Below, in pieces: positions 18,792 through 32,758 of a DNA stretch of 33,811 nt. Made by a program: the position numbers and the translations under genes. Numbering within the stretch: position 1 is the first letter of the stretch; the number at the start of each line of letters is the position of its first letter. Under the pieces are notes generated by a model. The model had not been told where the DNA came from. It saw nothing but the letters and a program-made list of their open reading frames with translations, and did no database searches. Origin of the DNA: Eubacteriales bacterium (GTDB lineage: Bacteria > Bacillota > Clostridia > Oscillospirales > CAG-272); assembly GCA_045547015.1 (NCBI GenBank), contig JAZQDY010000066.1, positions 1-33,811 of the forward strand, written 5' to 3'.

Positions 18792-18825
18792 AAAAAACGG
18801 TGGACAATCGATCCACCGTTTTTTA
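18792..18825. terminator. bidirectional intrinsic terminator between sigG and the convergent 1332-aa gene
   Basis: AAAAA-ACGGTGGA-caatcga-TCCACCGT-TTTTT is an 8-bp stem with an A-tract on the left and a T-tract on the right. It lies between two convergent stop codons (18790 and 18837). Confidence 0.8.
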
Positions 18826-18836
18826 TGCTGTTACTG

Positions 18837-21800
18837 TTATTTACCTGTTTTTTTTCGGTCGTTGACAAGCATGCCGATAAGTATTGCACACAAAATGATC
18901 GCGTTGGTGGCAAACGGTCCCCAGGAGCGTGTAATGATTCCGTAGGCGCTCCAAAGACAAACGTTAATCAGACTCCACGCTCTATACATTTTGCCGTTCT
19001 CCTGGGAAATGGAAGCAACGTACGGAATGGCCGTAAGAATCGGCAAAATAACAACCCAGGAGTGATTAAATATCAGATTGGCTGAAACGCTGGACAGGAC
19101 AAACAGGACGAGCAGCCATTTGGGAATTTTCTTGTTTTTCACACAGAAAAAGAAATTGATGACTGCCATGATGGCCCCGAGTCCGCAGGAAATGCCGCCG
19201 CTTACGTTGTCCACGACCACATAACTCAACGTCATGAAAAAGTTGGACAGAAACGCAAGCACCAGAATGAGATGCATATTACGTCCCTTGAACAGCATGG
19301 AAAGCGCTATACACAAGAGAGACAGTGCACTGAGAACAAAGGAAATAATCTGCATACGGTCCGAAAAACCGGGCTTATCATTTTCCTGTCCATCATCGGG
19401 AATGTCTGTAATTTCACCGGTCATATCCGCTGTCGCCGCGGGGGCGGCCGTTTCGGTAGTTTCCGGTGCGTCGGAAACCGCCGGCTCCTCTGGCATGGTT
19501 TTCAGAAGAGAGATGGTATCCACTACCGTAATCTTATCGCTGTCGTTTGTTCCCAGATTATAGGTTGTGAGCTTCAGCTCGCTTTCAGAAACGTCAATAG
19601 GGGTCAGATTTCTCGTAGCCGCCGTGCCGGTAACTGCCGCATAGATATTTTCGAACTGCACTTTATTCACCTGAGAACCGGAGCTGGTAGCACCGGTAAC
19701 GTACAGAATTCCATCGGGCGCGATGGCCTTCACAGGCTTTGAGGAGGTCTTCAAATCCGTATGTACCGTACCTGTGGCATCCTTCCAGCTTATGAATTTC
19801 GGCTCCATTGTGCCGTCCTCGTAAATGTAGGAACCGCTTTCGTACGGCGTAATGATCGAAGCATCGATATAATTGCCGCTTTCATCCATGGCAGGCTTCA
19901 GGATATGGGTACGTGTATAGGAATGATCGTGACCGGAAAGAACCAGATCCACGCCGTTTTCATAAAGGATGGGCAGCAGATACTCTCTTATATTGGTATA
20001 CGCATACTGCTCCGTTCTGTTATAAATACCGGTGGACTCGTTTACCGTATAGTTGCCGTGATAACTGGAGCCAAAAGGCGAATGATGATACAAAGCAATG
20101 GTCCAGTCAAAGGTCTGATCCTTCGTTTCCTCCATCACTCGTGCGATGAAAGCGCCGTGCTCCTCCGCCGCCGCTTTATCCTTAGCCCTGGCTGCTTCCG
20201 CGCCGGAGTTGTCCTTGAACGTATTCGTGTTCAGAACGATAAAGAGCACAGAATTATAAGTAAAGTAATAGTCAGCGCTGTGCAGATAAGAGCCGGCGCT
20301 GGTTTCATAACTCGCGCCGTAGTACGTACCATCCGGTTTCGTCAGCATATTGGGCAGATTTACGTGGAAAGGATAGATGGCATACGGCTGGTTGTCATGG
20401 TTACCGAGTGTGGTTACCGTAGGAAGAGAAAGCAATTCCTCGTGGTTGGAATACGCATCCCACTGCAATTCATGACCCTGGTAATTCTGCAGATATGTAT
20501 TGAGCTGATCGCCGGCAGACATGAGAAAATCCACCCCGTCAAACTCAGGGGCACTCATCAACTGGGAAAGGGTTCGGCCCCAGGCCTCGCCGTCCCCGGA
20601 AATGCACTCCCAGTTCTTAGAGGAATCCCCGCCGTATCCGCGTCCGATCTGGGGATCACCGGCAAAAGCAAACGTAAACGAATCAGAACCGCCTGTGGTA
20701 ATCGTATGAATCTCTCCAAGGTCCGTTCCATTGGCAAGCTGATAGCAGTATTCCGTATCCGGTTCAAGGTTTGCAATGGTTGCCTTGTTGGCAAAGTAAC
20801 TTTCTTTTTTCGACTCCGTTCTTTCGGCGGTCACCTGAGTGGCACCTGCCGGGAACGCACCGCCGTTCATATCGGACTTTTTTGCGTATGTAACTGTACC
20901 GTCCGCCTCGGAGACGGAATACCAGGTGAAGTTCAGTTCAGATTCATCCGCACCGAGCTGCAAAACGATATTTGTATGTTTTGGCGGCTGGGTAAACTCC
21001 ACAAGCGTCGTTGCTGCTTTTTCTGCACCGGCGGCGTGAATCTTTACAACAATATCCTGGGTTTCCGGGTCAAACTGCGCCGGATCGTATGCCAGTTTCG
21101 TAAAAGGAGCATCCTGCTGATCCACCAGCAAAAGCGTGTGTGCGGACTCAATGTAACTGGGAATTTTGTCCGGCGATACTGTATACGGCACAGTATACAT
21201 CATAACCGTGAAGGTGCCCTCACCGTCCGCAGGAAACATATCTTCGGTAACTTCCACGTACGCTGTTTCACCAATCACCGTACCGGCATCGGTCGCAACA
21301 AGATCGCGCAGCTCTGCGGCAGGCGCATATGGCAGCGGTGTTGTAAGATTGCGCCAGAACATGGCTTTCACACTTTTTGCGTTCTGGTAAGTGGAAAGGA
21401 ACGGCAATATATCGTATTCGGCAAAAGCAAGGGCGTTATGGGCATTCACGTACAGCGCCTTCTGACTGCCCACAAGACGGCCGATCATTTTCCCGTCCGC
21501 GTCGTAGGCAGCCAGCATAGGCGTAACTGCTCCACCTGCAGACGAGTCCGCAGCCATCTGGATCTTTATGGGATCGGCAACACTGGTAGTCAAGGAGAAA
21601 TTGTCAAGCTGGAAATGAATCTTCTGTCTTTCTTCCCCGACATCGTAGGATTTATCATGAAAAACAAGGCAGAGCAAATTATTCCGGCTGGTTCCCCATG
21701 TGTTGACGCGCTTGAAATCCAGGCTCTTTTCGGCACCGCTTTCATCGCGCACCGTACCCACAGCCGTATCGCCGCCGGGCTCATTGGTGATCTCGATGTG

Positions 21801-22835
21801 ATACCATTTTCCGCTTTCAAACTGGTCTGTTGAAAACTCAAATCCTTTTTTGCCTCGTTCCGTGGCGAGATTATTATCGTCATAGACAGAAAGATGTACT
21901 GTTTCCTTGGTCGTTCCGTACACCTTATAAAAATCAAACGATACCGTATATCCCTGCGGCAGTTTCGGCACATTAAAACCAGTGGAGTAGACAGCTCCGG
22001 TTGGATTCCGGCGAGCGGTATTTTCCGTTTTGTCTGAAGCAAGGACACTCCAGTCCATGGCGGAATAATCAACATCCAGCACCGTATTTCCACTGCCGTC
22101 TGCGGCAGATTTTACTGATACAGGAACACCGTAGGTAGTGTATCCCTCTGAAAGCGTGGGGGTCTTCTCTTCGTAATCTTCACGGAAAAGTTCTTTCTCA
22201 TGCGCCGCATCCAGTTTTTCAGGAACAAGCACGTTCACAGCCGGCACAGCAGATACGGCAAACAGATCATCCAGAAGATACGTACCTTCTGCAGAGCCGA
22301 TACCGGTGATGCGGACAGCATTTTTGTATACAGTTTGCGATCCGGCAGTATACAGAACAGCCGTCTCCATCCACTGCTTTCTCACCGGATTGTAAAGCTG
22401 AGCTGCGGAGGAACCGTTCTTCAGCACACATGTAAATGCACCGTCCGTGCCTACGGCAAAATTCTCAGGCAAAAGGAACACAGCGCTGTTTCCGGCATCA
22501 TCGTACAACGCAATCTCAAGCTGGCTGCCGGCAAAACGTTTCTCCGCTTCAAAAATAACGGCAGAGGAATCACCGAGGCGAAACACGGATGTGGAATAGA
22601 CAACGCTTGCGCCGCCGGGCACGGACAGCTTACCGTCTCCGCTGACGGCAGTAACGGAAATATTGCCGCTGCTATCCGCAGGCGAAGGGTTTAGGATATC
22701 GAAGTCAATACTCAGTTCAACACCGCCGCGGACTGCCGCCGTACCACCGTTTGCCAATACAGCCGGCACACACAGGGGGATGAGCAGACACAGTGTCAGG
22801 AAGAGCGACGCATAACGAGATAATTTCATAGTCAT
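18837..22835 (-). CDS. secreted multidomain metallophosphoesterase (purple-acid-phosphatase-like) fused to a C-terminal YgjV-family membrane domain
   Basis: Signal peptide MTMKLSRYASLFLTLCLLIPLCVPAVLANG. About 590 aa follow that I cannot place. Next is an FN3-like PAP N-domain (ELNFTWYS...TEYCYQL). Five metallophosphoesterase blocks occur in canonical order: FAGDPQIG, SAGDQLN, LGNHDN, LYHHSPF, SGHDHSYTR. A Pro/Thr/Glu/Ala linker spans aa 1113-1160. Aa 1161-1325 (nt 18861-19355) are multi-TM with the YgjV-like layout (...LPILTAIPYVASI..K..R.....W..Y...). SD AAGGGAG lies 6 nt upstream. Confidence 0.85.
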   Translation of the reverse strand: MTMKLSRYASLFLTLCLLIPLCVPAVLANGGTAAVRGGVELSIDFDILNPSPADSSGNISVTAVSGDGKLSVPGGASVVYSTSVFRLGDSSAVIFEAEKRFAGSQLEIALYDDAGNSAVFLLPENFAVGTDGAFTCVLKNGSSAAQLYNPVRKQWMETAVLYTAGSQTVYKNAVRITGIGSAEGTYLLDDLFAVSAVPAVNVLVPEKLDAAHEKELFREDYEEKTPTLSEGYTTYGVPVSVKSAADGSGNTVLDVDYSAMDWSVLASDKTENTARRNPTGAVYSTGFNVPKLPQGYTVSFDFYKVYGTTKETVHLSVYDDNNLATERGKKGFEFSTDQFESGKWYHIEITNEPGGDTAVGTVRDESGAEKSLDFKRVNTWGTSRNNLLCLVFHDKSYDVGEERQKIHFQLDNFSLTTSVADPIKIQMAADSSAGGAVTPMLAAYDADGKMIGRLVGSQKALYVNAHNALAFAEYDILPFLSTYQNAKSVKAMFWRNLTTPLPYAPAAELRDLVATDAGTVIGETAYVEVTEDMFPADGEGTFTVMMYTVPYTVSPDKIPSYIESAHTLLLVDQQDAPFTKLAYDPAQFDPETQDIVVKIHAAGAEKAATTLVEFTQPPKHTNIVLQLGADESELNFTWYSVSEADGTVTYAKKSDMNGGAFPAGATQVTAERTESKKESYFANKATIANLEPDTEYCYQLANGTDLGEIHTITTGGSDSFTFAFAGDPQIGRGYGGDSSKNWECISGDGEAWGRTLSQLMSAPEFDGVDFLMSAGDQLNTYLQNYQGHELQWDAYSNHEELLSLPTVTTLGNHDNQPYAIYPFHVNLPNMLTKPDGTYYGASYETSAGSYLHSADYYFTYNSVLFIVLNTNTFKDNSGAEAARAKDKAAAEEHGAFIARVMEETKDQTFDWTIALYHHSPFGSSYHGNYTVNESTGIYNRTEQYAYTNIREYLLPILYENGVDLVLSGHDHSYTRTHILKPAMDESGNYIDASIITPYESGSYIYEDGTMEPKFISWKDATGTVHTDLKTSSKPVKAIAPDGILYVTGATSSGSQVNKVQFENIYAAVTGTAATRNLTPIDVSESELKLTTYNLGTNDSDKITVVDTISLLKTMPEEPAVSDAPETTETAAPAATADMTGEITDIPDDGQENDKPGFSDRMQIISFVLSALSLLCIALSMLFKGRNMHLILVLAFLSNFFMTLSYVVVDNVSGGISCGLGAIMAVINFFFCVKNKKIPKWLLVLFVLSSVSANLIFNHSWVVILPILTAIPYVASISQENGKMYRAWSLINVCLWSAYGIITRSWGPFATNAIILCAILIGMLVNDRKKTGK

Positions 22836-22856
22836 CAGTAACTCCCTTACAATTCG

Positions 22857-23933
22857 TTACTTTAAAATATTAAGGAAACGCGCCACTTCTTTGCCGATCT
22901 TTTCCGCCATCCGGAGAAAACCAATGTCCGTTGGATGGACGCCGTCTACCAGTTCGCAGCCAGTATAGCAGTCGGAAAAGTACTCTTTTCCATCAATAAA
23001 AACAACGTTCCGGTCCCCTGCCGCCTTGGCGCGCTCTACCGTATCTTTCACGATCCGGCGGCGTTCTTCATTGTCAGCGGATCCGGTGTAATCAGGCCGG
23101 GAAGCGCAGATAATCGGCAGGTCCGGCTGTTTATCCCGAATGATGCGGAACATTCTTTCGTGCGTCTTTCGGAGAAACTCCGGGTCCGGCGCGTTATGAT
23201 CGTAATCGTATACGAACACGCTCATGTGGAGGGCAGCGATATATTCGGCGACTGCATCCTCTGCCTTTGCGTTTCCGTTGAAGCCAAGATTCAAGAAATC
23301 ACAATCCAGCATTCGGGAAATAATTGCCTCATACGTATTTCCGGGGCGGGACGCACAGCCGCCGTGGGTAATGGAAGAACCGTAATACACCACCGGCTTT
23401 TCATACGTATATGGGCGCGGCGGCTCCACCACCGCATCCGCGTCCAAATACAGATACAGCCTGGACACTTCGCTGAACAAGGGGAAATTCAAAGTCAGCT
23501 CCCGCATCTTTTTTTCCGGAAACGTATACTCGGACTCAAAACCGTTTTCAATAGTGTACGGCGGGATAAACGTATGGGCATACATTTCCCTGCCGTTTTC
23601 CCTGTTATAGAGGTCAAATCCTGCGCATCCGGTAAGCGCATCGTGTGAGTATTTCCATATACACGGCATCTCCGCGTGAATGGCAATATAAGAAGAATCG
23701 GTTCTGAATCTGAGCCGTGCACCGGTTGTGTTGGCGTGCAGCCAGTGCACGTTTCTGCTGACAGCCAGTGCAGCATCCTCAGGCATACGGCGGAATTTGT
23801 CATCCGGCGCATCCGTTGGCGGAATAATACCGTGCAGTTGAAAAGGGGCTTTCCGCACGTCATACACGGTCACGTTCTCCCGGCTGATCTTACACTCCAC
23901 TTTCAGATTCGGATCAATTTGAGAAATGTCCAT
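22857..23933 (-). CDS. SGNH/GDSL hydrolase with GxDLY-type N-terminal domain (copy 1), no signal peptide
   Basis: GFDLY motif in the N-domain. SGNH blocks are VVYYGSSITHGG (nucleophile Ser), LGFNGNAKAE (block III Asn) and VDGVHPTD (Asp/His). About 50% identical by eye to the 27532-28578 product. Confidence 0.85.
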   Translation of the reverse strand: MDISQIDPNLKVECKISRENVTVYDVRKAPFQLHGIIPPTDAPDDKFRRMPEDAALAVSRNVHWLHANTTGARLRFRTDSSYIAIHAEMPCIWKYSHDALTGCAGFDLYNRENGREMYAHTFIPPYTIENGFESEYTFPEKKMRELTLNFPLFSEVSRLYLYLDADAVVEPPRPYTYEKPVVYYGSSITHGGCASRPGNTYEAIISRMLDCDFLNLGFNGNAKAEDAVAEYIAALHMSVFVYDYDHNAPDPEFLRKTHERMFRIIRDKQPDLPIICASRPDYTGSADNEERRRIVKDTVERAKAAGDRNVVFIDGKEYFSDCYTGCELVDGVHPTDIGFLRMAEKIGKEVARFLNILK

Positions 23934-23946
23934 GGATCATTCTCCC

Positions 23947-24822
23947 TCAAAGAATCTTCTCACCGTCAAAGAGAATCACACCGGTACCGGAACCCATTTT
24001 TCCGCCGGCTTTCAGATATTCTATGTAGTTTCGTCTGAGGCGGGTATCCGTGGGTGCCTTATCCAGCGTTTCGGGTCCCTCGTATACCATATTGAAGATC
24101 CGCCAGAAATCACTGCCGGTCTCCCTCTCCTTGGTGCTGACAATATCAAAAAGAGCAGCGAATTTCCGCGTATTGGATCCTTCCGGATACATCACGATGG
24201 TAGGCGGATACAGAAGCCAGGAATAGCACACGATCTTCAGAATACCGTCTTTCAAACTGTCCTTATTGAACTCATACAGTTTTTTGAAAGAATCCATGAC
24301 AGATTCCGGCGTCAAAGGTCCGCTGGACGGAATATGGCAGCTGAAACAGGCATCGCCATTTTTCAGAATTCCTTTATAGTCTTCGCCGCCCCACGTATGC
24401 TTATCGAACTGCAGACGACCGAAAGGCATACGCTCGCAGGTATAGAACATTTTAAACCAGTCCACGAACGTGCCCCAAATGCCGTATACGTCGTGGCACT
24501 CGATCAGCTTATATTTCAGATCTGTCACAGACTCCCAATACATATGCTCCGGGAGGTTTTTCTGTTTATAGATATAGTACAGCGATTTTGTACACAGAAT
24601 CCAGAAAACCATATCGGAAGTGTATCGGTGCACGCCGGATTCCTTCGAAACGTTTTCAAGAATCGGAACAAATGAGTTGTCCGTTCCGCAGTACATAGCG
24701 TCCATGGCTTCGTAAATGCCGGTCAGTGCTTTTGGGGACGACAGGATCTTCCGGTAGGCCGCCTCCAAACAATCCGCAGCTTCTTCGGGAAATCCTGTTT
24801 TTTCACAAAAATCTCTTACCAT
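23947..24822 (-). CDS. acyltransferase-like protein (GNAT-like C-terminal domain / DUF5596-type N-domain), copy 1
   Basis: 291 aa from the ATG at 24820-24822, with AGGAGG 6 nt upstream; the track's TTG at 24840 is unlikely. It is about 70% identical by eye to the 26610-27488 product. The family assignment rests on my recollection of the 'acyltransferase domain-containing protein' family (CHIPSSGPLTPESV..., ...GTGVILFDG) and needs an HMM check. Confidence 0.7.
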   Translation of the reverse strand: MVRDFCEKTGFPEEAADCLEAAYRKILSSPKALTGIYEAMDAMYCGTDNSFVPILENVSKESGVHRYTSDMVFWILCTKSLYYIYKQKNLPEHMYWESVTDLKYKLIECHDVYGIWGTFVDWFKMFYTCERMPFGRLQFDKHTWGGEDYKGILKNGDACFSCHIPSSGPLTPESVMDSFKKLYEFNKDSLKDGILKIVCYSWLLYPPTIVMYPEGSNTRKFAALFDIVSTKERETGSDFWRIFNMVYEGPETLDKAPTDTRLRRNYIEYLKAGGKMGSGTGVILFDGEKIL

Positions 24823-24878
24823 ACTGAACCTCCTGTTCAATCCGCGTTACTTGGCAGAATTGAAAATTCATACTTTTA

Positions 24879-24906
24879 ATTATATCACTATTTTTCATGG
24901 TGTCAA
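24879..24906 (-). promoter_or_regulatory. near-consensus sigma-A promoter for the AT1-SGNH1-phosphoesterase operon
   Basis: Minus strand reads TTGACA (24901-24906), a 16-nt spacer, then TGaTATAAT, an extended -10 (TATAAT at 24879-24884), about 57 nt upstream of the ATG at 24822. Confidence 0.65.
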
Positions 24907-24917
24907 TAAATTTCAGC

Positions 24918-24938
24918 AAAAAAAGCACAGCCGCAGAG
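24918..24938 (-). terminator. 3' arm plus U-tract of a terminator that has been split by the cassette
   Basis: AAAAAAA-GCACAGCC (24918-24932) is the exact complement of GGCTGTGC-TTTT at 26578-26589. The two arms are 1.6 kb apart and are rejoined if the cassette and one GCCGCAGAG copy are removed. Confidence 0.7.
24930..24938. repeat. target-site duplication, left copy (GCCGCAGAG)
   Basis: An identical 9-mer in direct orientation lies at 26570-26578. Both copies directly abut the outer ends of the inverted repeats. Confidence 0.8.
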
Positions 24939-24975
24939 CAATGTCATTTAGATAAGGCTGTAGAAGTTTAGATAA
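24939..24975. repeat. left terminal inverted repeat
   Basis: CAATGTCATTTAGATAAGGCTGTAGAAGTTTAGATAA. It contains two TTTAGATAA sub-repeats spaced 20 nt apart. Confidence 0.85.
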
Positions 24976-25037
24976 GGGTAAATCCATAAACATATCCCAT
25001 TTCTGCTAAGAATACCGTTTAGTAAAGTATTTCAATT

Positions 25038-25095
25038 ATAAAAAAGACGGGAATACCCATATCACCACAGTAGTTGCGGTGGCATGGATGTTCCC
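25038..25095 (-). terminator. intrinsic terminator inside the cassette, about 190 nt past the regulator's stop codon
   Basis: Minus strand shows a long imperfect stem, GGGAAcAtCCATgcCACCgC-aacta-cTGtGGTGatATGGgTaTTCCC, followed by GTCTTTTTT. Confidence 0.6.
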
Positions 25096-25282
25096 TCTTT
25101 GTTTCAGTGGTTATTTATTTTTCTGAAAACATTACTTTTTAGAGCGTGATCTTGTAAGAAATGATGCCCTTACATTTTTTCTCATTTTGAAAATATAAAA
25201 GTTTTATCATTACGTATATTACTTTAATTATAAAATTGCGAACGATGTGTTTAGATATGGCAATACCGCTGTGGTATTACGA

Positions 25283-26347
25283 TTATTCAAATAAAGCTTT
25301 AAAATCTTCGTAATCACGGATGAAATCAAATACGTCCCTCTTGCTCATTTCCTTGATATTATCGAGATGCGTTCCTTCTGAATGATACCACTCTCTTGAA
25401 TCGATGGTAATGTGATCAAACAACGGCGCTGTATACCTATACTCACCGAGTGCGATTGAATCAATCAAATCGTACTCTTTCACATGATATATTGCTTCTT
25501 TCAAGAATTTTATTGCTGATTCAGCGTTTCCTTCGGATGCCGCAATTTCAGCTTTTCTGAATTTGATGTGACTCATCAAGTGGTGATATTCGCAGTAATT
25601 CCCGTCTGGAATCATTGCTTTAATGATACTTTCTGCGGCTGTACAGGTATCCTTGTTATCTCCAATATTGCTCCAGAGCAGCACATGGATAAGAGCTCCG
25701 AAATGTTTTTCAAGATACTTCTGTTTATGACAGATTTGTTCATCACCATCAAGACAACTAACAAGCAATCCTTCTTTCTCTGTCGGATCTATTTTTGTTT
25801 CGGGGAATAAATCCAAATAACGTCTTGCTTCCTTTTTGTCTCCTTTTCCACAGAAACAGCCAACAATGTACCAAATAGCCCGCGCTTTTATTTCGTCATC
25901 ATCTGTATTTCCGATTACCCTATCAAATATCTTTATGACTCGTTCTCGTACCTCTTCAAACTCTTCTCCATTAGGTAATGTCGCTATAGCTAAGTTCCAA
26001 GTATCTATAGCATAACAAGTCAGCCACTTCATATCAGACGGGTATTCATGGGTGGCAGTTTCTGCGATCAGTAAACATGCCTCCGGGTAGTTTGTTTTTG
26101 CTGCTTCATCGTACAATCTTTCAAGTTCTTCCAGTCGGGTGTCAGATTCTTTTGCTCCCAGCAGTTCATCCGTAGATACGCCTAATGCTTTTGAAAGCGG
26201 AACAATCAGCGCAAGATCAGGCATTGTCAGACCACACTCCCATTTGCTGACCGACTTATAGGTAACACCGAGATATTCTGCCAGTTTCTCCTGTGTGAGA
26301 TCATTCTTCTTCCGCAGTTCCTTGATTCTTAGTCCAATATTCTTCAT
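25283..26347 (-). CDS. XRE-family HTH regulator with an about 290-aa helical, TPR-like C-terminal domain (RNPP-like architecture)
   Basis: The N-terminus IKELRKKNDLTQEKLAEYLGVTYKSVSKWECGLTMPDLALIVPLSKALGVSTDELLG is a canonical HTH_3/XRE domain. The remainder is helix-rich with repeated hydrophobic/acidic periodicity. SD AAGGAGAA is present. Codon usage is AT-rich, unlike the neighbours. Confidence 0.88.
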   Translation of the reverse strand: MKNIGLRIKELRKKNDLTQEKLAEYLGVTYKSVSKWECGLTMPDLALIVPLSKALGVSTDELLGAKESDTRLEELERLYDEAAKTNYPEACLLIAETATHEYPSDMKWLTCYAIDTWNLAIATLPNGEEFEEVRERVIKIFDRVIGNTDDDEIKARAIWYIVGCFCGKGDKKEARRYLDLFPETKIDPTEKEGLLVSCLDGDEQICHKQKYLEKHFGALIHVLLWSNIGDNKDTCTAAESIIKAMIPDGNYCEYHHLMSHIKFRKAEIAASEGNAESAIKFLKEAIYHVKEYDLIDSIALGEYRYTAPLFDHITIDSREWYHSEGTHLDNIKEMSKRDVFDFIRDYEDFKALFE

Positions 26348-26394
26348 ATGTTTTCTCCTTTTTCAAAAGTAAGCCGTGCACCGCTTCTGTATAT

Positions 26395-26423
26395 AGTATA
26401 ACATAATAACAATACACTCACAA
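26395..26423 (-). promoter_or_regulatory. candidate promoter of the cassette regulator
   Basis: Minus strand reads TTGTGA (26418-26423), a 17-nt spacer, then TATACT (26395-26400), 48 nt upstream of the ATG. Confidence 0.4.
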
Positions 26424-26440
26424 CACCATCTTCGCCGAGT

Positions 26441-26465
26441 CGAACTCTCGCAATGGGAGAGTTCG
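26441..26465. repeat. 9-bp perfect inverted repeat (CGAACTCTC-N7-GAGAGTTCG) upstream of the regulator promoter
   Basis: Read directly from the sequence. It could be an operator or an RNA hairpin; the function is not determinable here. Confidence 0.5.
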
Positions 26466-26532
26466 CTTTCTTGCCGTATAAAAAAGACCCCTCGATTGCT
26501 TTTAACAACAGAGGAATCTTTCGCGTTAGGTT

Positions 26533-26569
26533 TTATCTAAACTTTTACCGCTTTATCTAAATGACATTG
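26533..26569. repeat. right terminal inverted repeat
   Basis: The reverse complement reads CAATGTCATTTAGATAAAGCGGTAAAAGTTTAGATAA, matching the left TIR at 34/37 with the outer 17 nt identical. Confidence 0.85.
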
Positions 26570-26578
26570 GCCGCAGAG
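26570..26578. repeat. target-site duplication, right copy (GCCGCAGAG)
   Basis: Direct repeat of 24930-24938. Confidence 0.8.
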
Positions 26579-26590
26579 GCTGTGCTTTTG
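26570..26590 (-). terminator. 5' arm of the split terminator downstream of AT2
   Basis: GGCTGTGCTTTT lies 19 nt after the AT2 stop, counted on the plus strand. See 24918-24938 for the partner arm. Confidence 0.7.
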
Positions 26591-26609
26591 CCATTTTCAG
26601 TCCACATGG

Positions 26610-27488
26610 TCAGAGTATTTTTTCTCCGTCAAACAGGATTACCCCCGTACCGCTGCCCATCTTATTACCCGCCTTCAGATACGCCGCATAGTTCCGTCTC
26701 AGGCGTGTATCCAAAGGCACACGGTCCAGCGTTTCCGGCCCTTCGTACATCGTATTAAAGATCCGCCAAAAATCCACGGAGGTGGAGCGCTCTTGCATAC
26801 CGATTATATCGAAAAGCTCATAAAATTTCCGGGTGTTGGAACCCTCCGGGTATAACTCAATGGTGGGAGGATACAAAAGTCCGGTAGTAGTCACGATTTT
26901 CAGAATACCGTCCGCAAGGCTGTCCTTATGGTATTCGTACAGTTTTCCGATAGAATCCATGACAGATTCCGGTGTCAGCGGTCCGCTGGACGGAATATGG
27001 CAGTAAAAGTACGTATCGCCTTTTTTCAGAATGCCGCGATAATCTTCCCCGTCCCACGCACGCAGATCGTACTGCAGCCGACCGAACGTCATACGATCAC
27101 AGGTAAAAAAGCGGTCGAACCACTGGGTAAAAACACCCCAGATCCCGTACACGGAATAACACTCCATCAGCTTGTATTTGAGATCCATCATGGCATCCCA
27201 GTACAGATGCTCCGGGATATTCTTCTGCTTATAAATATAGTACAGCGGTTTGGCACAGTGAATCCAGAACACCAGATCGGAAGTGTATCTGTGCACGCCG
27301 GATTTTTTTGATACGGTCTCAAGGCTCTCCGCAACGGACGGGCGTGGTTGAGCGGAATACACCTTATCCATCGCTTCATAGATCTCGTGCACAGCCGAAG
27401 GGGACTGCAGAATCTTTCTGTACGCCGTCTCAAGGCACACTACGGCCTCTTCGGGGAAGCCGAGTTTTTCACAAAAATCCTTTACCAT
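26610..27488 (-). CDS. acyltransferase-like protein (same family as 23947-24822), copy 2
   Basis: 292 aa, MVKDFCEKLGFPEEA...KMGSGTGVILFDGEKIL. GGAG lies 7 nt upstream of the ATG. It is a paralogue of copy 1. Confidence 0.7.
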   Translation of the reverse strand: MVKDFCEKLGFPEEAVVCLETAYRKILQSPSAVHEIYEAMDKVYSAQPRPSVAESLETVSKKSGVHRYTSDLVFWIHCAKPLYYIYKQKNIPEHLYWDAMMDLKYKLMECYSVYGIWGVFTQWFDRFFTCDRMTFGRLQYDLRAWDGEDYRGILKKGDTYFYCHIPSSGPLTPESVMDSIGKLYEYHKDSLADGILKIVTTTGLLYPPTIELYPEGSNTRKFYELFDIIGMQERSTSVDFWRIFNTMYEGPETLDRVPLDTRLRRNYAAYLKAGNKMGSGTGVILFDGEKIL

Positions 27489-27531
27489 ACGTCAACTCCA
27501 ATTGAAAACGCGATGGTTTGCGTCGCTTATT

Positions 27532-28578
27532 TTAATCCAGAATATCCTTCATGACATTCTCCAGAGCTGCCGCCATGGAGGCAAATCCGTAATCGGTAGG
27601 ATGACAGCCGTCCACCGTACCCTCATTGCCGCACAATGCCATAAGTGCCGGTCCATCCAGGAAGTATACGTTTTTATCTCCGGCGGCAAGTGCGTTCTTA
27701 TAGGTCGTTTCCACACAGCGGCGGCGGTCCACTTCCGGTTCAAGCAAATAAATCTTCGGTCGGCTCATCATAATGACCGGTATGTCCGGATGCTTGGCGC
27801 GCACGGCTTTAAACAGCTTTTCATGGGTCGCCCAAAGATGCTCGGGCGTGGGTGCGTTGTGATCGTAATCCAGCACAAACATGGACATATCAAGACCGCT
27901 GAGATACTCAATCATGGTATCTTCTGCTCTGGCATTTCCGGAAAAGCCAAGATTTATATAATCCATATTGAAACGTCTCTCCAGAACGCTCTGATAACTT
28001 CTGCCGGGACGGGAGGCGCAGCCGCCCTGGGTGATGGAAGAACCATAGTATACCACCGGTTTTTCGTTTCTGTACGGTTTGGCAGCCTGTACCACGGCAT
28101 CCTCCTGGAGACCGATATATACCGCGTTCACATCACTGTAAAGGGGGAGATTAATAGTAATTTCGCGAAGCTGCTTTGAGGGCAGCGGAACTTCCCCGTC
28201 AAATCCTTCAGTGATAGAAAAAGGAGGAATAAATGTCTTCACAAACACGCCGTCCGCATACAGATCAAATCCGATGGAGCCGGTGAGTGCAAAATGCGAC
28301 ATTTTACCCAGTGCTTCTTTCATTTCTGCGTGAATAACCACATAAGGGCTGTCCGTCACAAAGCGGATACGGCCGCCGGCCGTATTGGCGTGAAGCCGCC
28401 AGACGCCGTCGCTGACGGATTTGGCAACGGATTCCGGCATACGGCGGTATTTACCGTCCTCCCAGTACACGCCGTGAATGGAAAACGGTGCTTTCTGCGG
28501 ATCGTAGAACCGCATATCCTCCCGCTGAACTGTAGTTGGCACGGCAAAGTTCTTGTCAATGCTTGCGATGTCAGACAT
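27532..28578 (-). CDS. SGNH/GDSL hydrolase with GxDLY-type N-terminal domain (copy 2), no signal peptide
   Basis: GFDLY motif, VVYYGSSITQGG, LGFSGNARAE, VDGCHPTD. I use the ATG at 28576-28578 (GGAGG 8 nt upstream) rather than the track start at 28605. Confidence 0.85.
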   Translation of the reverse strand: MSDIASIDKNFAVPTTVQREDMRFYDPQKAPFSIHGVYWEDGKYRRMPESVAKSVSDGVWRLHANTAGGRIRFVTDSPYVVIHAEMKEALGKMSHFALTGSIGFDLYADGVFVKTFIPPFSITEGFDGEVPLPSKQLREITINLPLYSDVNAVYIGLQEDAVVQAAKPYRNEKPVVYYGSSITQGGCASRPGRSYQSVLERRFNMDYINLGFSGNARAEDTMIEYLSGLDMSMFVLDYDHNAPTPEHLWATHEKLFKAVRAKHPDIPVIMMSRPKIYLLEPEVDRRRCVETTYKNALAAGDKNVYFLDGPALMALCGNEGTVDGCHPTDYGFASMAAALENVMKDILD

Positions 28579-28608
28579 TTTTTCTTCCTCCGATATAAAT
28601 ATCATTGT

Positions 28609-29157
28609 TTATTTTATTTCACCGGCAGACACCTCGGTCTGCTCTTTTTTGTTCCGTTTCCAATCGTAGCGAAGCATGGCAATGAGAAGTGACGAAATGC
28701 CCATCAGATCACCCAGACAGGAAGCATACGCACGACATGAAAAATTGTAAATAAACCAGAACGGACCGCCAAGAATACAGACACGGCGTATGTTCTTTTC
28801 CTTCGTCAGCCAAAGCCCGCAGGTCTGAAAGAGCACCGCGGCAATGGGAAACAGACTGAACACGTTTTCGTATACCGTAAGTCCCGCCGCCACAATGAAC
28901 GAATTCACCGCAATCAGGATAGGAATACGATACTTTTTTACAAAAGGCGTTTCCTTCTTTCCGGCAACAAAGGTAGAAATCATAGCAGAAAAATCCATGA
29001 CCGCCCCTTCAAAGGCGAACAGTAATACGTACTGCAGAATAAACAGTGCTCTTGCCGTCATATTAACCGCGATAATTCTGCCCCTCGTTTTTTGCTGGTA
29101 TCCTAAAAGAAGAACAACGATACCGACGATTCCGACGATTTGACCGAGTGTTTCCAT
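28609..29157 (-). CDS. YgjV-family inner-membrane protein (stand-alone)
   Basis: Multi-TM protein. ...FPIAAVLFQTCGLWLTKEKNIRRVCILGGPFWFIYNF... parallels E. coli YgjV (LPVIGT...K....R......W.IHNF) as I remember it. The start is set to METLGQ (29155-29157) because a good promoter (29204-29232) lies inside the track's longer N-terminal extension. Confidence 0.7.
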   Translation of the reverse strand: METLGQIVGIVGIVVLLLGYQQKTRGRIIAVNMTARALFILQYVLLFAFEGAVMDFSAMISTFVAGKKETPFVKKYRIPILIAVNSFIVAAGLTVYENVFSLFPIAAVLFQTCGLWLTKEKNIRRVCILGGPFWFIYNFSCRAYASCLGDLMGISSLLIAMLRYDWKRNKKEQTEVSAGEIK

Positions 29158-29203
29158 AAACCCTACCAGAATTCCATAGTGATAAAAACATACGTGATGC
29201 TTG

Positions 29204-29232
29204 ATTATATCACAGAATCCGCCTTTATGCAA
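29204..29232 (-). promoter_or_regulatory. sigma-A promoter for the ygjV-like/SGNH2/AT2 operon
   Basis: Minus strand reads TTGCAT (29227-29232), a 17-nt spacer, then TGaTATAAT, an extended -10 (TATAAT at 29204-29209). Confidence 0.6.
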
Positions 29233-29294: not shown

Positions 29295-29323
29295 TTGACA
29301 ACGTGCAGCGGTGCTGATATAAT
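29295..29323 (+). promoter_or_regulatory. consensus sigma-A promoter for the GH20b-domain gene
   Basis: TTGACA (29295-29300), a 17-nt spacer, then TGaTATAAT (TATAAT at 29318-29323). Both hexamers are perfect. SD GAGGT lies 6 nt before the ATG at 29371. Confidence 0.7.
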
Positions 29324-31605: not shown

Positions 31606-31619
31606 AACGGTTCCAGAAA

Positions 31620-31655
31620 AAGGAGGTGCTGCATTTGCAAATGCAGCCCCTCCTT
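31620..31655. repeat. 36-bp near-perfect palindrome / long hairpin just after the stop codon
   Basis: AAGGAGGtGCTGCATTTGCAAATGCAGCcCCTCCTT has one mismatch in 18 pairs. A T-tract is present only in the minus-strand reading (TTTTTCTGG). Confidence 0.7.
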
Positions 31656-31764
31656 GCACTTACCCATGCCCGATACGGCGGTCATTTTTTGCCCGTTTCG
31701 GGCAAAAGGAACTCTCACAGCATATTCCTGCGGGATTTCAAATTCTTGCGTCTCTGCCGCAAAA

Positions 31765-31803
31765 ATTCGGGGCTGTCACATCTAAATGCGACAGCCCTTT
31801 TAA
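31765..31803. terminator. bidirectional intrinsic terminator between the glycosidase-like gene and the MBL gene
   Basis: AAAAATTCG-GGGCTGTC...GACAGCCC-TTTT is an 8-bp stem (31770-31777 with 31790-31797), lying 7 nt from the MBL stop codon. Confidence 0.7.
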
Positions 31804-31806
31804 CGT

Positions 31807-32562
31807 TTAAGCGTTCTTTTCTTCTTCAATGATTTTAAGCATATTCGCCGTACAGCCGGTAAGGAAATCATGCCAGATTTTTTCATCAAAAAACAGATTC
31901 TCGCCCGTTTTCATAAGATGCGCCGCTTTTTCCTCCGTTCGGTTGTTCCATACGTGATTGCCGATAAACACATCCACGCGTTCTTTCTGTAATCGTTCTA
32001 CCGAAGCGAGATAGTCGTCTACGCAGCCGTCGTATTCGTAGTTACCGCGGGAAAGCGTGTTTGTTCCAGCACCGCCGAACATACCGACTCGATACGTTTT
32101 TTCATTATCCACCGTATCAAAAAACAGCGACACGGTACCCTTCGTATGACCGGGTGTTTCCATAAAGTGAACCGTTGTATTGCCGAGAGTCAGCGTATCC
32201 CCGTCGTGAATTATAATGTCCGGCTCACAATACCGTTTTACATTTTCCGCGTCCTCGCACCCGATGAGATTCTTCGCACCAGTCAGTTTCGCCAAGGCAC
32301 CGCTTGCCTCGGCATGATCCCAGTGCCAATGGGTATTGATGATATACTTCACATTTTCCGGGCGAAATCCGAGTTTATAGATTGAATTAATCAGAAGATG
32401 CAGACCGTCCATATAGCCCGTATCGATGAGAATCAAACCGTCCCCGGTATCGATCAAGTGGCTGGAAGCGGGACGCATGCCTACGAAATACACGTTCCCG
32501 GCAATTCTGAAAGGCTCTATCGCCTCGTTCAAAAAGGCAAGCAGTTCTTCCCTGTTCTTCAC
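31807..32562 (-). CDS. MBL-fold metallo-hydrolase
   Basis: HxHxDH motif (NTHWHWDHAEA) preceded by SSHLIDTGDGLILIDTG. The start is trimmed to the GTG at 32560-32562 (GAGGGA 9 nt upstream), because the track's longer ORF reads through the tRNA-Lys gene and its terminator. Confidence 0.8.
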   Translation of the reverse strand: MKNREELLAFLNEAIEPFRIAGNVYFVGMRPASSHLIDTGDGLILIDTGYMDGLHLLINSIYKLGFRPENVKYIINTHWHWDHAEASGALAKLTGAKNLIGCEDAENVKRYCEPDIIIHDGDTLTLGNTTVHFMETPGHTKGTVSLFFDTVDNEKTYRVGMFGGAGTNTLSRGNYEYDGCVDDYLASVERLQKERVDVFIGNHVWNNRTEEKAAHLMKTGENLFFDEKIWHDFLTGCTANMLKIIEEEKNA

Positions 32563-32597
32563 AAAAATGTGTCCCTCTCTATCCGTTCCCGAAATTT

Positions 32598-32630
32598 TAA
32601 AACAAAAGGCCCTGTCAAACGACAGGGTCT
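32598..32630 (-). terminator. intrinsic terminator after tRNA-Lys
   Basis: Minus strand reads CCCTGTC-gttt-GACAGGG followed by CCTTTTGTTTT. Confidence 0.7.
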
Positions 32631-32636
32631 TTTGCG

Positions 32637-32712: not shown

Positions 32713-32729
32713 ATCCAAAACGCCTATAT

Positions 32730-32758
32730 ATAATAGCACAAAAACCTGTGCGTGTCAA
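32730..32758 (-). promoter_or_regulatory. sigma-A promoter for tRNA-Lys
   Basis: Minus strand reads TTGACA (32753-32758), a 17-nt spacer, then TATTAT (32730-32735), 18 nt upstream of the mature 5' end. Confidence 0.65.

What the first reader, a model, noticed from the sequence alone, without database searches (positions are those of the whole stretch)
18837..29232. Recurrent three-gene set (YgjV membrane module + cytoplasmic SGNH esterase + acyltransferase-like protein) present twice, side by side, in permuted order
Operon 2 (29157 down to 26610) reads ygjV-like, SGNH2, AT2. Operon 1 (24822 down to 18837) reads AT1, SGNH1, then a phosphoesterase whose C-terminal 165 aa are again YgjV-like. 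The gene content is therefore mirror-symmetric around the cassette even though every gene is on the same strand, which a simple tandem duplication would not produce.

Intergenic gaps are 13-43 nt with SD sequences, which suggests co-translation within each operon. The esterases, the AT-like proteins and the divergent GH20b-domain protein lack signal peptides. Only the phosphoesterase ectodomain is exported.

Inference: this is a conserved functional module. One possible scheme is extracellular dephosphorylation, import through the YgjV-type domain, then intracellular de-acylation, acyl transfer or glycoside cleavage of an acetylated sugar or nucleoside-like substrate. I know of no described pathway linking these three families, and the substrate guess is speculative.
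Basis: partly seen in the sequence, partly recalled or inferred. Interest (0 to 1): 0.7.

Follow-up and report, generated by a model that had tools for sequence, protein, structure and literature searches.

The report
Twin transporter–esterase–acyltransferase operons, lineage-specific
Two neighbouring operons in an uncultured gut Clostridia genome each combine a YgjV membrane module, an SGNH esterase and a Dbv8-like N-acyltransferase, but this trio was put together piecemeal in one lineage and is not a widely conserved module, although weaker pairwise links between the families do recur elsewhere.

Summary
HMMs confirm all six assignments, the permuted same-strand order and the 13-43 nt gaps. 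Each operon has its own promoter and terminator.

The two sets are not copies of one block:
- AT1 and AT2 are recent paralogues (72% identity).
- SGNH1 and SGNH2 are old, non-sister paralogues (51%).
- The two YgjV modules belong to different subfamilies (18%).

Syntenic relatives carry ygjV-SGNH alone, or AT-phosphatase alone, in the same tRNA-Lys/glnS-to-sigma slot. This points to stepwise assembly. The phosphatase's single-helix anchor was replaced by a 7-helix YgjV domain, a fusion seen only in this lineage among 1.84 billion representative proteins.

The full trio occurs only in the window's own lineage. It is absent from the other 79 AT-anchored genome loci and from 80 SGNH-anchored metagenome loci. 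Pairwise links do recur: ygjV-SGNH in 2 of 6 contexts, ygjV-AT once, and three YgjV-GNAT fusion clusters. AT also neighbours GH89/GH123, and SGNH neighbours GH20.

The most likely function is uptake and cytoplasmic de-decoration of an acylated or phosphorylated amino-sugar compound. This is inferred, not shown.

The "cassette" between the operons is a transposase-less mobile insertion cassette with IS4-type ends, inserted in a terminator loop. The GH20b label for the 744-aa protein is sub-threshold.

The parts
18837..22835 (-). PAP::YgjV fusion, 1332 aa. In order: signal peptide, ~600-aa unassigned N-terminal region, purple-acid-phosphatase-like metallophosphoesterase, low-complexity linker, then a 7-helix YgjV domain (residues ~1160-1327, nt 18837-19343).
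   Evidence: Pfam. Metal-ligand motifs GD(726), GD(775), GNHD(811) and GHDH(968). Hydrophobic segments at 5-31 and 1160-1327. Orthologues in L001/L006 (50-52% identity) end in a single TM anchor instead.
18792..18824 (-). Intrinsic terminator of operon 1 (AAAAAACGGTGGA-tcgattg-TCCACCGTTTTTT).
   Evidence: Read directly from the sequence.
22857..23933 (-). SGNH1: cytoplasmic GxDLY + Lipase_GDSL_3 esterase or acyltransferase, 358 aa.
   Evidence: Pfam. 51% identity to SGNH2. Branches outside the SGNH2 clade, with 0 of 100 bootstraps for a SGNH1+SGNH2 clade. GSSIT and DGxHPTD blocks intact.
23947..24822 (-). AT1: NAT_N + GNAT_C (DUF5596) acyl-CoA N-acyltransferase-like protein, 291 aa.
   Evidence: Pfam. 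72% identity to AT2. The family profile hits Dbv8/tcp24 at E 2e-19, with the HIP..GPL motif conserved.
24879..24906 (-). Promoter of operon 1: TTGACA-16-TATAAT with TG. Conserved in L002.
24939..26569 (.). Mobile insertion cassette. It has 17-bp perfect terminal inverted repeats (CAATGTCATTTAGATAA) and a 9-bp target duplication (GCCGCAGAG, at 24930-24938 and 26570-26578). It carries an HTH_3 gene (25283-26347, minus strand) and no transposase. It splits the terminator hairpin of operon 2.
   Evidence: Absent from L002/L005. Sequence. TIR search. The same TIRs bound an IS with a DDE_Tnp_1 transposase in L181 and a 93.7%-identical copy in L182.
26610..27488 (-). AT2: NAT_N + GNAT_C acyltransferase-like protein, 292 aa.
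   Evidence: Pfam. Homologues.
27532..28578 (-). SGNH2: GxDLY + Lipase_GDSL_3, 348 aa from ATG 28578.
   Evidence: Pfam. 75% identity to the syntenic L174 SGNH and ~62% to a very large clade.
28609..29157 (-). Stand-alone YgjV, 182 aa, 7 predicted helices, positive-inside loops implying N-out/C-in.
   Evidence: Pfam 90.7 bits. AF2 model with pLDDT 90.5. Loop charges. Weak SemiSWEET profile hit, E 0.0066.
29204..29232 (-). Putative promoter of operon 2: TTGCAT-17-TATAAT with an extended -10 TG.
   Evidence: Read directly. It falls below the scan tool's -35 threshold, so it is an inference.
29371..31605 (+). Divergently transcribed 744-aa cytoplasmic protein of unassigned family. It has a weak GH20b-like N-terminus and an I-x-D-x-P-x-F-x-x-RG junction motif. 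Its perfect promoter lies at 29295-29323.
   Evidence: It co-occurs only with the full cluster, in L002/L003/L005.

Best explanation
This is a lineage-specific accessory islet in the variable slot between tRNA-Lys/glnS and a sporulation sigma-factor gene of an uncultured gut Clostridia (Eubacteriales) bacterium. It holds two independent operons, ygjV-SGNH2-AT2 and AT1-SGNH1-PAP::YgjV, plus a divergent 744-aa gene.

The twin sets were assembled stepwise, not by copying a three-gene block:
1. A ygjV-SGNH pair (as in relative L174) and an AT-phosphatase pair (as in relatives L001/L006/L007) came to share the slot.
2. AT was duplicated in tandem.
3. A distantly related SGNH gene was added.
4. The phosphatase's single-helix anchor was replaced by a YgjV domain from a different subfamily.

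Proposed mechanism (inferred):
- The surface-tethered purple-acid-type phosphatase dephosphorylates an extracellular phosphorylated amino-sugar or glycan fragment next to the N-out, 7-helix, SWEET-like YgjV pore, which takes it up.
- In the cytoplasm the SGNH esterases strip O-acyl groups.
- The Dbv8-like acyl-CoA N-acyltransferases N-acylate a free hexosamine amine. This traps the compound and makes it a substrate for an exo-hexosaminidase-type enzyme, possibly the 744-aa protein.

Shown: the families, operon structure, evolutionary history, topology logic, and recurrence of pairwise links. Inferred: the substrate class, the direction of transport, and all enzymology.
For: Families.

Two transcription units, also present in relatives.

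Unequal paralogue divergence:
- AT 72%.
- SGNH 51% and not sister, 0 of 100 bootstraps.
- YgjV 18%.
- AT1 and AT2 are each 55-58% identical to the L001/L006 AT.

Contents of the syntenic slot:
- L174 holds ygjV(pseudogene)-SGNH (75% to SGNH2) only.
- L001/L006/L007 hold AT-PAP only, and that PAP ends in a single TM anchor.
- L002-L005 hold the full set.

Fusion uniqueness: of 272 YgjV-domain relatives among 1.84 billion representatives, the only PAP fusion listed among the best 150 hits is the window's own cluster.

The N-out/C-in topology of E. coli YgjV (PMC4604451) and the positive-inside loops fit fusion behind an exported ectodomain.

Independent links between the families:
- L178-180: Metallophos x2 + GxDLY-SGNH + SDR + MBL + ygjV in one same-strand run.
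- L043: ygjV overlapping AT, followed by an arylamine N-acetyltransferase.
- YgjV-GNAT fusion proteins P0367, P0401 and the P0350/P0446 cluster.
- A PIG-L de-N-acetylase gene directly upstream of ygjV in L171/172.

Amino-sugar theme:
- AT next to NAGLU/GH89 (L038, L053) and to GH123 twice.
- SGNH next to GH20 three times.
- L029 holds AT, ROK kinase, SGNH, GH20C and ABC permeases.

Rough enrichment (my arithmetic): SGNH density in AT flanks outside the lineage is about 2 per 1.08 Mb. That predicts about 0.12 in the ~67 kb around six independent ygjV2-type genes. Two were observed, giving a Poisson P of about 0.007.
Against: - The full trio is confined to one lineage. YgjV appears in 0 of 80 SGNH-anchored loci and in only 1 of the 79 non-lineage AT-anchored loci, even with a broad YgjV HMM.
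- Partners of AT and of SGNH are very heterogeneous.
- Three of six ygjV2-type contexts show no related enzymes.
- PAP orthologues work with a plain TM anchor, so the YgjV domain may be only an anchor.
- The L178-type metallophosphoesterases are cytoplasmic and not PAP-like.
- Foldseek gave no significant SWEET/PnuC match for the confident YgjV model, and the SemiSWEET profile hit is weak (E 0.0066).
- No member of Lipase_GDSL_3 has a known activity (PMC9487903).
- The 744-aa protein is unassigned.
- The samples are small, and gene calls in the loci were heuristic.
Confidence: 0.4

Rival explanations
1. Hot-spot accumulation without functional coupling. The slot next to tRNA-Lys is a variable region that collects unrelated accessory genes. 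The repeated families reflect chance plus a local AT duplication. The YgjV domain on the phosphatase is only a replacement membrane anchor.
For: - The slot content differs in every related lineage.
- Two further strain-specific indels and a mobile cassette lie in the same region.
- The trio is absent elsewhere.
- Neighbours of AT and of SGNH are heterogeneous.
- PAP orthologues use a single TM helix.
Against: - The same three rare families were recruited twice from non-sister lineages into tightly spaced, SD-linked operons.
- ygjV-SGNH recurs in L174 and L178-180.
- ygjV-AT recurs in L043.
- YgjV-GNAT fusions exist.
- The rough Poisson P for ygjV-SGNH is about 0.007.
Confidence: 0.27
2. Biosynthetic or cell-envelope decoration system working outward. 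SGNH proteins act as O-acyltransferases (as SsfX3 does) and the AT proteins as N-acyltransferases (as Dbv8/Orf11* do). Together they build an acylated amino-sugar compound that YgjV exports and that the surface phosphatase matures.
For: - The characterised relatives of both enzyme families are biosynthetic acyltransferases: SsfX3 (PDB 3skv) and Dbv8/tcp24.
- SWEET-like carriers are uniporters and are in principle bidirectional (established knowledge).
Against: - The islet holds no glycosyltransferase, NRPS/PKS, sugar-nucleotide or lipid-carrier genes.
- In other genomes the neighbours of AT and SGNH are catabolic: GH89, GH123, GH20, ROK kinase, ABC importers, PfkB, aldolase.
Confidence: 0.13
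3. An ancient duplication of a complete three-gene block, followed by rearrangement and very unequal divergence.
For: The same three families occur twice side by side. Membrane proteins can diverge quickly.
Against: - SGNH2 is closer to hundreds of orthologues in other taxa (61-75%) than to SGNH1 (51%), with 0 of 100 bootstraps for a shared clade.
- The YgjV modules are 18% identical and fall in separate subfamilies, each with its own stand-alone relatives.
- Syntenic relatives carry half-sets that cut across the supposed block.
- The gene order is permuted.
Confidence: 0.05

Closest known systems
Dbv8 / Orf11* (tcp24) N-acyltransferases of A40926 and teicoplanin biosynthesis (PDB 4mfz, 4mfj, 4q36)
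   Same: Same two-domain architecture (NAT_N + GNAT_C). The profile hits at E 2e-19 over ~210 residues. The LGRLQY and H-I/V-P-x-x-G-P-L motifs are conserved. By analogy, AT1 and AT2 would be acyl-CoA-dependent N-acylating enzymes acting on a hexosamine amine.
   Different: AT1/AT2 come from Clostridia, and the locus has no glycopeptide cluster. The acceptor and acyl donor are unknown. Identity is low. In other genomes the neighbours are glycoside hydrolases and housekeeping genes.
SsfX3 (PDB 3skv) and the uncharacterised 4lhs protein: GxDLY + Lipase_GDSL_3 SGNH family
   Same: Same two-domain architecture: an N-terminal beta-sandwich-type GxDLY domain plus an SGNH domain. Profile E-values are 8.5e-54 to 4lhs and 4e-9 to SsfX3. 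The catalytic Ser/Gly/Asn/Asp-His blocks are invariant.
   Different: SsfX3 is a polyketide O-acyltransferase. No activity is known for the bulk of the family (PMC9487903). Here the proteins are cytoplasmic and lie in operons with a transporter.
Ecto-phosphatase plus small-solute carrier salvage, e.g. Haemophilus NadN / e(P4) with PnuC (recalled from the literature, not tested here)
   Same: The logic of dephosphorylating outside, then taking up the neutral product through a small 7-helix carrier, with cytoplasmic modification trapping it.
   Different: In that system the enzymes and carrier are separate proteins, the substrate is NAD/NMN, and trapping is by phosphorylation. Here the phosphatase is fused to the carrier-like domain, the substrate is unknown, and any trapping would be by acylation. 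YgjV membership of the PnuC/SWEET fold class is not established.
Lysosomal heparan sulfate pathway logic: HGSNAT then NAGLU (recalled from the literature)
   Same: N-acetylation of a terminal glucosamine is needed before an exo-alpha-N-acetylglucosaminidase can act. AT homologues sit directly upstream of GH89 (NAGLU) genes in L038 and L053.
   Different: HGSNAT is an unrelated transmembrane enzyme. The window has no GH89 gene, only an unassigned 744-aa protein.
MIC231-type mobile insertion cassettes with IS231/IS4-family ends (recalled from the literature)
   Same: The element between the operons has IS-type terminal inverted repeats and a target duplication. It carries a passenger gene and no transposase. 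A transposase-encoding IS with identical ends exists elsewhere.
   Different: It comes from a different host group and the passenger is an HTH_3 regulator-like protein. Mobilisation in trans has not been shown.

Membership tests
Imp-YgjV (PF10688) | HMM score above the Pfam gathering threshold | tested here: met
   The stand-alone gene scores 90.7 bits and the PAP C-terminal domain 37.8/44.3 bits, against a cut-off of 23.5.
Imp-YgjV (PF10688) | N-out/C-in multi-helix inner-membrane topology, as determined for E. coli YgjV | tested here: met
   Seven helices in the AF2 model (pLDDT 90.5). K/R-rich loops alternate on one side. Experimental topology of E. coli YgjV: PMC4604451. For the window proteins this is prediction only.
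SWEET / SemiSWEET / PnuC-type carriers | Triple-helix-bundle repeat fold, detectable by sequence profile or structure comparison | tested here: inconclusive
   The profile hits SemiSWEET 5uhs at E 0.0066 over 46 residues only. Foldseek of the confident model against the PDB gave no hit with E below 0.5.
GxDLY + Lipase_GDSL_3 SGNH hydrolases | Both Pfam domains above threshold, and the SGNH catalytic blocks present | tested here: met
   Scores are 121-127 bits and 74-93 bits. GSSIT, G, GN and DxxH positions are invariant in a 25-sequence alignment that includes both paralogues.
GxDLY + Lipase_GDSL_3 SGNH hydrolases | Esterase rather than acyltransferase activity, and substrate identity | not testable with these tools
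   No characterised activity exists for the family apart from SsfX3.
Dbv8/Orf11*-type N-acyltransferases (NAT_N + GNAT_C, DUF5596) | Both Pfam domains above threshold, and significant similarity to the solved enzymes | tested here: met
   Pfam scores are 56-73 and 80-105 bits. The PDB profile search gives E 2e-19 to 2e-15.
Dbv8/Orf11*-type N-acyltransferases (NAT_N + GNAT_C, DUF5596) | Conserved His of the H-I/V-P motif. I recall it as the general base of Orf11*; that role was not verified here. | tested here: met
   H164 is invariant in 36 sequences and aligns with the LHIPE / LHVPE motif of Dbv8/tcp24.
Purple-acid-phosphatase-like metallophosphoesterases | Pur_ac_phosph_N + Metallophos domains, and the metal-ligand motifs (GD, GDxx, GNH[DE], GHxH) | tested here: met
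   Pfam scores are 50 and 44 bits. Motifs lie at residues 726, 775, 811 and 968. The internal His motif was not individually checked.
GH20 beta-N-acetylhexosaminidases (744-aa protein) | Glyco_hydro_20b and Glyco_hydro_20 catalytic-domain HMMs above threshold | tested here: not met
   GH20b reaches 16.6 bits against a cut-off of 26.1, and there is no catalytic-domain hit. The NCBIfam GlcNAcase hit is 18 bits against a cut-off of 1000. BLASTP against a true GH20C gives E 0.45. There is no PDB sequence hit, and the AF2 model is unusable (pLDDT 37.8).
   The trio occurs only in L002-L005, the window's own lineage. It is absent from the other 79 AT-anchored loci (1.1 Mb of flanks in the set of 80) and from 80 SGNH-anchored loci (0.58 Mb of flanks), also when a broad YgjV HMM is used.
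Pairwise neighbourhood links | ygjV with SGNH, ygjV with an acetyl- or acyltransferase, or AT with PAP, in independent genomes | tested here: met
   ygjV-SGNH in L174 and L178-180. ygjV-AT-NAT in L043. YgjV-GNAT fusions. AT-PAP in L001/L006/L007. Numbers are small; the rough P for ygjV-SGNH is about 0.007.
Mobile insertion cassette with IS4-family ends | Terminal inverted repeats shared with a transposase-bearing IS, a target-site duplication, no transposase, and an empty site in relatives | tested here: met

The most novel reading that the evidence does not exclude
YgjV proteins are small SWEET-like importers of amine-bearing sugars. Their uptake is coupled to cytoplasmic acyl transfer, so the imported compound is trapped by N-acylation. 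This would explain the YgjV-GNAT fusions, the ygjV-AT operons, and the unique phosphatase::YgjV fusion here, which adds an outside dephosphorylation step. The window would then give a first testable function for three orphan families at once: Imp-YgjV, Lipase_GDSL_3/GxDLY, and DUF5596 outside the actinomycetes.
Probability: 0.2. Interest if true: 0.65.

Novelty: new variant of a known kind. Interest (0 to 1): 0.4.

Why it matters
Imp-YgjV, the Lipase_GDSL_3/GxDLY esterases and the DUF5596 acyltransferases have no assigned physiological role in gut Firmicutes. This locus, together with the YgjV-GNAT fusions and ygjV-SGNH operons found from it, gives concrete hypotheses that can be tested with cloned genes. 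These are a carrier for an amino-sugar-type compound, enzymes that remove or add acyl groups so exo-glycosidases can act, and a rare enzyme-carrier fusion. If the hypotheses are right, they would add a missing uptake and de-decoration step to host-glycan or cell-wall amino-sugar salvage in gut Clostridia. If they are wrong, the locus is simply a variable islet and of little general interest.

Tried and rejected
- **Block duplication.** Rejected on paralogue identities and the SGNH NJ tree.
- **744-aa protein.**
  - Pfam at E up to 10, NCBIfam, PDB phmmer and BLASTP against a GH20C neighbour gave nothing significant.
  - Single-sequence AF2 gave pLDDT 37.8, so no fold search was run.
- **YgjV fold class.** Foldseek of the confident YgjV model against the PDB gave no significant hit, so the SWEET-like assignment rests on a weak profile hit only.
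- **Riboswitch clue to the substrate.** The Rfam gathering scan found only tRNA-Lys.
- **Literature.** 'YgjV' gave nine papers, none functional apart from the topology study. 'GxDLY' gave none. DUF5596 and the Pfam accessions gave only general SGNH papers. Dbv8/Orf11 papers are not in the searchable library.
- **Contexts of YgjV1-type relatives.** The contigs were about 1 kb and mostly uninformative.
- **The cassette in plasmids.** There was no blastn match.
- **A first bootstrap script** timed out and was rerun with a faster distance routine.
- **The HTH gene as a dedicated regulator of the cluster.** Rejected because it is cargo of a mobile element, is absent from the closest relatives, and is present at 93.7% identity in an unrelated contig.

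Full report
**1. What is in the sequence**

Seven minus-strand genes lie between 18837 and 29157. One plus-strand gene lies at 29371-31605.

- The 1332-aa protein has Pur_ac_phosph_N (E 4.5e-13), Metallophos (3.8e-11) and a C-terminal Imp-YgjV domain (2.1e-9; 2.2e-11 when scanned alone).
- The 358-aa and 357-aa proteins have GxDLY + Lipase_GDSL_3.
- The ~291-aa proteins have NAT_N + GNAT_C.
- The small membrane protein is Imp-YgjV (1.2e-25).
- The gene between the two sets is an HTH_3 protein.
- The 744-aa protein has no Pfam hit at normal thresholds. Its only hits are a sub-threshold Glyco_hydro_20b match (E 0.014) and an NCBIfam GlcNAcase fragment (18 bits against a cut-off of 1000).

The order is ygjV-SGNH2-AT2 | AT1-SGNH1-PAP::YgjV. 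The intergenic gaps are 30, 43, 13 and 21 nt, each with a Shine-Dalgarno sequence. Only the phosphatase has a signal-like N-terminus. It also has a block of hydrophobic helices at residues 1160-1327.

**2. Transcription units and the 'cassette'**

Close relatives (L002-L005, 84-95% protein identity) carry the same genes. In them AT2 and AT1 are only 147 nt apart. That spacer holds an intrinsic terminator (AAAAGCACAG...CTGTGCTTTTTTT) followed by a perfect TTGACA-16-TATAAT promoter. The same promoter lies at 24906-24879 in the window. A strong terminator follows the phosphatase gene, and an extended -10 promoter precedes ygjV.

Window 24931-26579 has no counterpart in L002/L005. The sequence shows the following:
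- Perfect 17-bp inverted repeats (CAATGTCATTTAGATAA) at 24939-24955 and 26553-26569. Two matches were found against 0.01 expected.
- A 9-bp direct duplication (GCCGCAGAG) on either side.
- An insertion point in the loop of the AT2 terminator.

The same ends bound a 93.7%-identical copy in another contig (L182). They also bound a 1679-bp element in L181 whose single ORF is a DDE_Tnp_1 (IS4-type) transposase. That element too sits inside a terminator-like hairpin, with a 10-bp duplication.

The window element has no transposase. It is a mobile insertion cassette carrying an HTH gene, not a regulator that belongs to the cluster.

**3. The two sets are not copies of one block**

- AT1 and AT2 are 72% identical. 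Each is 55-58% identical to the nearest outgroup AT in L001/L006. They are therefore a lineage-specific duplication.
- SGNH1 and SGNH2 are only 51% identical.
  - SGNH2 is 75% identical to the SGNH of L174 and about 62% identical to a very large clade.
  - In an NJ tree SGNH2 is sister to L174 inside that clade. SGNH1 branches outside it. A SGNH1+SGNH2 clade was recovered in 0 of 100 bootstraps.
- The two YgjV modules show no BLAST similarity and are 17-18% identical when aligned.
  - Each has its own stand-alone relatives: 52 clusters for YgjV2, and 272 representatives for the PAP-borne type.

**4. How the islet was assembled**

The flanks are housekeeping genes. On one side lie cdaA, ybbR, spoIVB, an HpcH/HpaI aldolase and a sigma factor. 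On the other lie tRNA-Lys and glnS.

The same slot differs between relatives:
- L174 holds a ygjV with a stop codon and a frameshift, plus an SGNH.
- L001/L006/L007 hold an AT plus a 1059-1070-aa phosphatase.

That phosphatase is 50-52% identical to the window protein over the ectodomain. It ends in a repeat linker and a single hydrophobic helix followed by KRKK. In the window lineage this anchor is replaced by a 7-helix YgjV domain.

A full HMMER pass over 1.84 billion representative proteins found 272 relatives of that domain. Among the best 150 listed, the only PAP fusion is the window's own cluster (P0293, 3 members). The rest are proteins of about 170-180 aa, apart from three YgjV-GNAT fusions.

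The mirror-like order is most simply explained as a ygjV-SGNH unit and an AT-PAP unit brought together. A tandem AT duplication, a further SGNH gene and the fusion were then added.

**5. Is the trio a conserved module? No**

*Anchored on AT* (80 species-representative genome loci, 1.1 Mb of flanks):
- An SGNH lies within 10 kb in L005 (the window's own lineage), L029 and L080.
- A YgjV lies within 10 kb in L005 and L043.
- A PAP-type phosphatase occurs in L005-L007.
- 133 putative operon partners from the non-lineage loci with such partners fall into 127 Pfam families. The commonest, DUF711, appears six times.

*Anchored on SGNH* (80 metagenome loci, 0.58 Mb of flanks, 33 of them with at least 8 kb):
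- No AT, YgjV or PAP was found.
- 89 partners fall into 107 families.

A broader YgjV HMM built from 114 representatives changes nothing.

**6. Pairwise links do recur**

Six independent ygjV2-type contexts outside the lineage were examined. Two have a GxDLY-SGNH in the same gene run:
- L174.
- L178-180, where two metallophosphoesterases, SGNH (57% to SGNH2), an SDR, an MBL-fold protein and ygjV are co-oriented.

Taking the SGNH density in AT flanks as background gives about 0.12 expected against 2 observed. The rough Poisson P is about 0.007 (my arithmetic).

Further links:
- Homologues of the L178-type phosphoesterase lie near SGNH in L092, L099 and L116.
- In L043 a ygjV of the PAP-borne type overlaps the start of an AT. 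An arylamine N-acetyltransferase follows.
- Three representative clusters fuse YgjV to a C-terminal GNAT domain.
- In L171/172 a PIG-L (GlcNAc de-N-acetylase family) gene directly precedes ygjV.

Other ygjV contexts are sugar-related: GH2 genes in L086, and an aldolase plus PfkB kinase in L175. Two contexts (L085 and L088) are uninformative.

**7. What the enzymes resemble**

*AT.* The AT profile hits the solved N-acyltransferases Dbv8 and tcp24/Orf11* (E 2e-19 to 2e-15). The LGRLQY and H-I/V-P..GPL motifs are conserved, and the His is invariant in 36 homologues. From my own knowledge, those enzymes N-acylate a glucosamine with acyl-CoA.

*SGNH.* The SGNH profile hits the uncharacterised 4lhs (8.5e-54), SsfX3 (4e-9) and 6hfz (5e-8). 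A 2022 review lists Lipase_GDSL_3 among the SGNH families without a known activity (PMC9487903).

*YgjV.*
- The YgjV profile weakly hits SemiSWEET (E 0.0066).
- The AF2 model is confident (pLDDT 90.5) and has seven helices.
- Foldseek found no significant PDB match.
- E. coli YgjV is N-out/C-in by experiment (PMC4604451). The K/R-rich loops of both window modules fit that topology. This makes fusion behind an exported ectodomain topologically sound.

*Genomic context in other genomes.*
- AT genes sit next to GH89/NAGLU (L038, L053) and GH123.
- SGNH genes sit next to GH20 three times.
- L029 combines AT, a ROK kinase, SGNH, GH20C and ABC permeases.

**8. Most likely mechanism, and its status**

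These points favour an uptake and de-decoration route for an acylated and/or phosphorylated amino-sugar compound:
1. The tethered phosphatase acts outside the cell.
2. YgjV takes the product up.
3. SGNH removes O-acyl groups.
4. AT N-acylates a free amine, so that a hexosaminidase-type enzyme can act, or so that the compound is trapped.

Everything about substrate, direction of transport and catalysis is inference. I put this at about 0.4.

The main rival is that the slot merely collects accessory genes and the YgjV domain is only an anchor (about 0.27). An outward-working biosynthetic role (about 0.13) and an ancient block duplication (about 0.05) are less likely. The remainder is unassigned.

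**9. Verdict**

The claim of a conserved three-family module fails its own test.

What remains of interest:
- The same three poorly understood families were recruited twice, independently, in one lineage.
- The phosphatase::YgjV fusion is unique.
- YgjV-acetyltransferase fusions elsewhere act as Rosetta-stone links.

This is a new variant of a familiar kind of accessory sugar-utilisation locus. Interest is moderate (0.4).

Limits of this analysis:
- Few independent ygjV contexts were available.
- Gene calling in the fetched loci was heuristic.
- Only the best 80 loci per scan were kept.
- The tree is NJ only.
- No homologue-based model of the 744-aa protein could be made.

Noticed in passing
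window 24930-26578: The HTH 'cassette' is a 1631-bp transposase-less mobile insertion cassette. It has perfect 17-bp inverted repeats and a 9-bp target duplication. A 93.7%-identical copy lies in L182 (2386-4027). An IS with identical ends and a DDE_Tnp_1 transposase lies in L181 (5056-6734).
   Followed up: yes
window 24918-24938 and 26570-26590; L181 5035-5055 and 6735-6760: Both the window cassette and the L181 IS sit in the loop of an intrinsic-terminator-like hairpin. This suggests a target preference for terminator loops. In the window the insertion splits the terminator of the ygjV-SGNH2-AT2 operon, so read-through into the cassette is possible.
   Followed up: partly
window ~25075-25098 (minus strand), inside the cassette: A tiny ORF encoding MPPQLLW has a strong Shine-Dalgarno sequence (AAGAGGGA). 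It is followed by a terminator-like hairpin and lies downstream of the HTH gene. It could be a signalling or leader peptide.
   Followed up: no
window 31610-32598; tRNA-Lys at 32637-32712 (minus strand): A second stretch of about 1 kb is absent from L002/L005. It holds a metallo-beta-lactamase-fold ORF right next to tRNA-Lys(UUU). The long ORF 31807-32739 runs into the tRNA gene, so its 5' part is spurious.
   Followed up: partly
P0367, P0401, and the P0350/P0446 cluster (L173 808-2109): Proteins of 432-434 aa fuse an N-terminal YgjV domain to a C-terminal GNAT acetyltransferase domain. They are rare, with 1-3 members per cluster.
   Followed up: partly
L178 1-5525 (also L179, L180): A co-oriented gene run holds His_Phos_1/Metallophos, Metallophos, GxDLY-SGNH, SDR, an MBL-fold protein and ygjV. 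A divergent GH2 gene and an AraC regulator lie beside it. This is an independent phosphoesterase-SGNH-YgjV combination without any AT.
   Followed up: partly
L174 5243-7174: In the syntenic slot of a relative, ygjV carries an in-frame stop and a frameshift (a pseudogene or an assembly error). The adjacent SGNH, 75% identical to SGNH2, is intact.
   Followed up: partly
L171/L172 1-1230; L169 1-1037: Genes of the PAP-borne YgjV subtype are directly preceded by a PIG-L family (GlcNAc de-N-acetylase-type) gene in L171/L172, and by a GFO/IDH/MocA oxidoreductase in L169.
   Followed up: partly
L038 7764-9842, L053 10751-12829, L029 9971-20827: AT homologues lie directly upstream of GH89 (NAGLU) genes in L038 and L053. 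L029 combines AT, a ROK kinase, SGNH, GH20C and ABC permeases. This recalls the 'N-acetylate, then cleave' logic of heparan sulfate breakdown.
   Followed up: partly
L018 8804-10575: Another genome also has two AT (DUF5596) genes in tandem, so tandem duplication of this gene is not unique to the window lineage.
   Followed up: no
window 28004-28063 against L002 12449-12508: A 60-nt stretch of SGNH2 is 90% identical to SGNH1 of the relative, far above the gene-wide level. It may be a conserved active-site block or a small gene-conversion tract.
   Followed up: no
window 27489-27531 (minus strand): A small GC-rich hairpin followed by TTTT lies in the 43-nt SGNH2-AT2 spacer. It could act as a partial terminator or attenuator within operon 2.
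   Followed up: no
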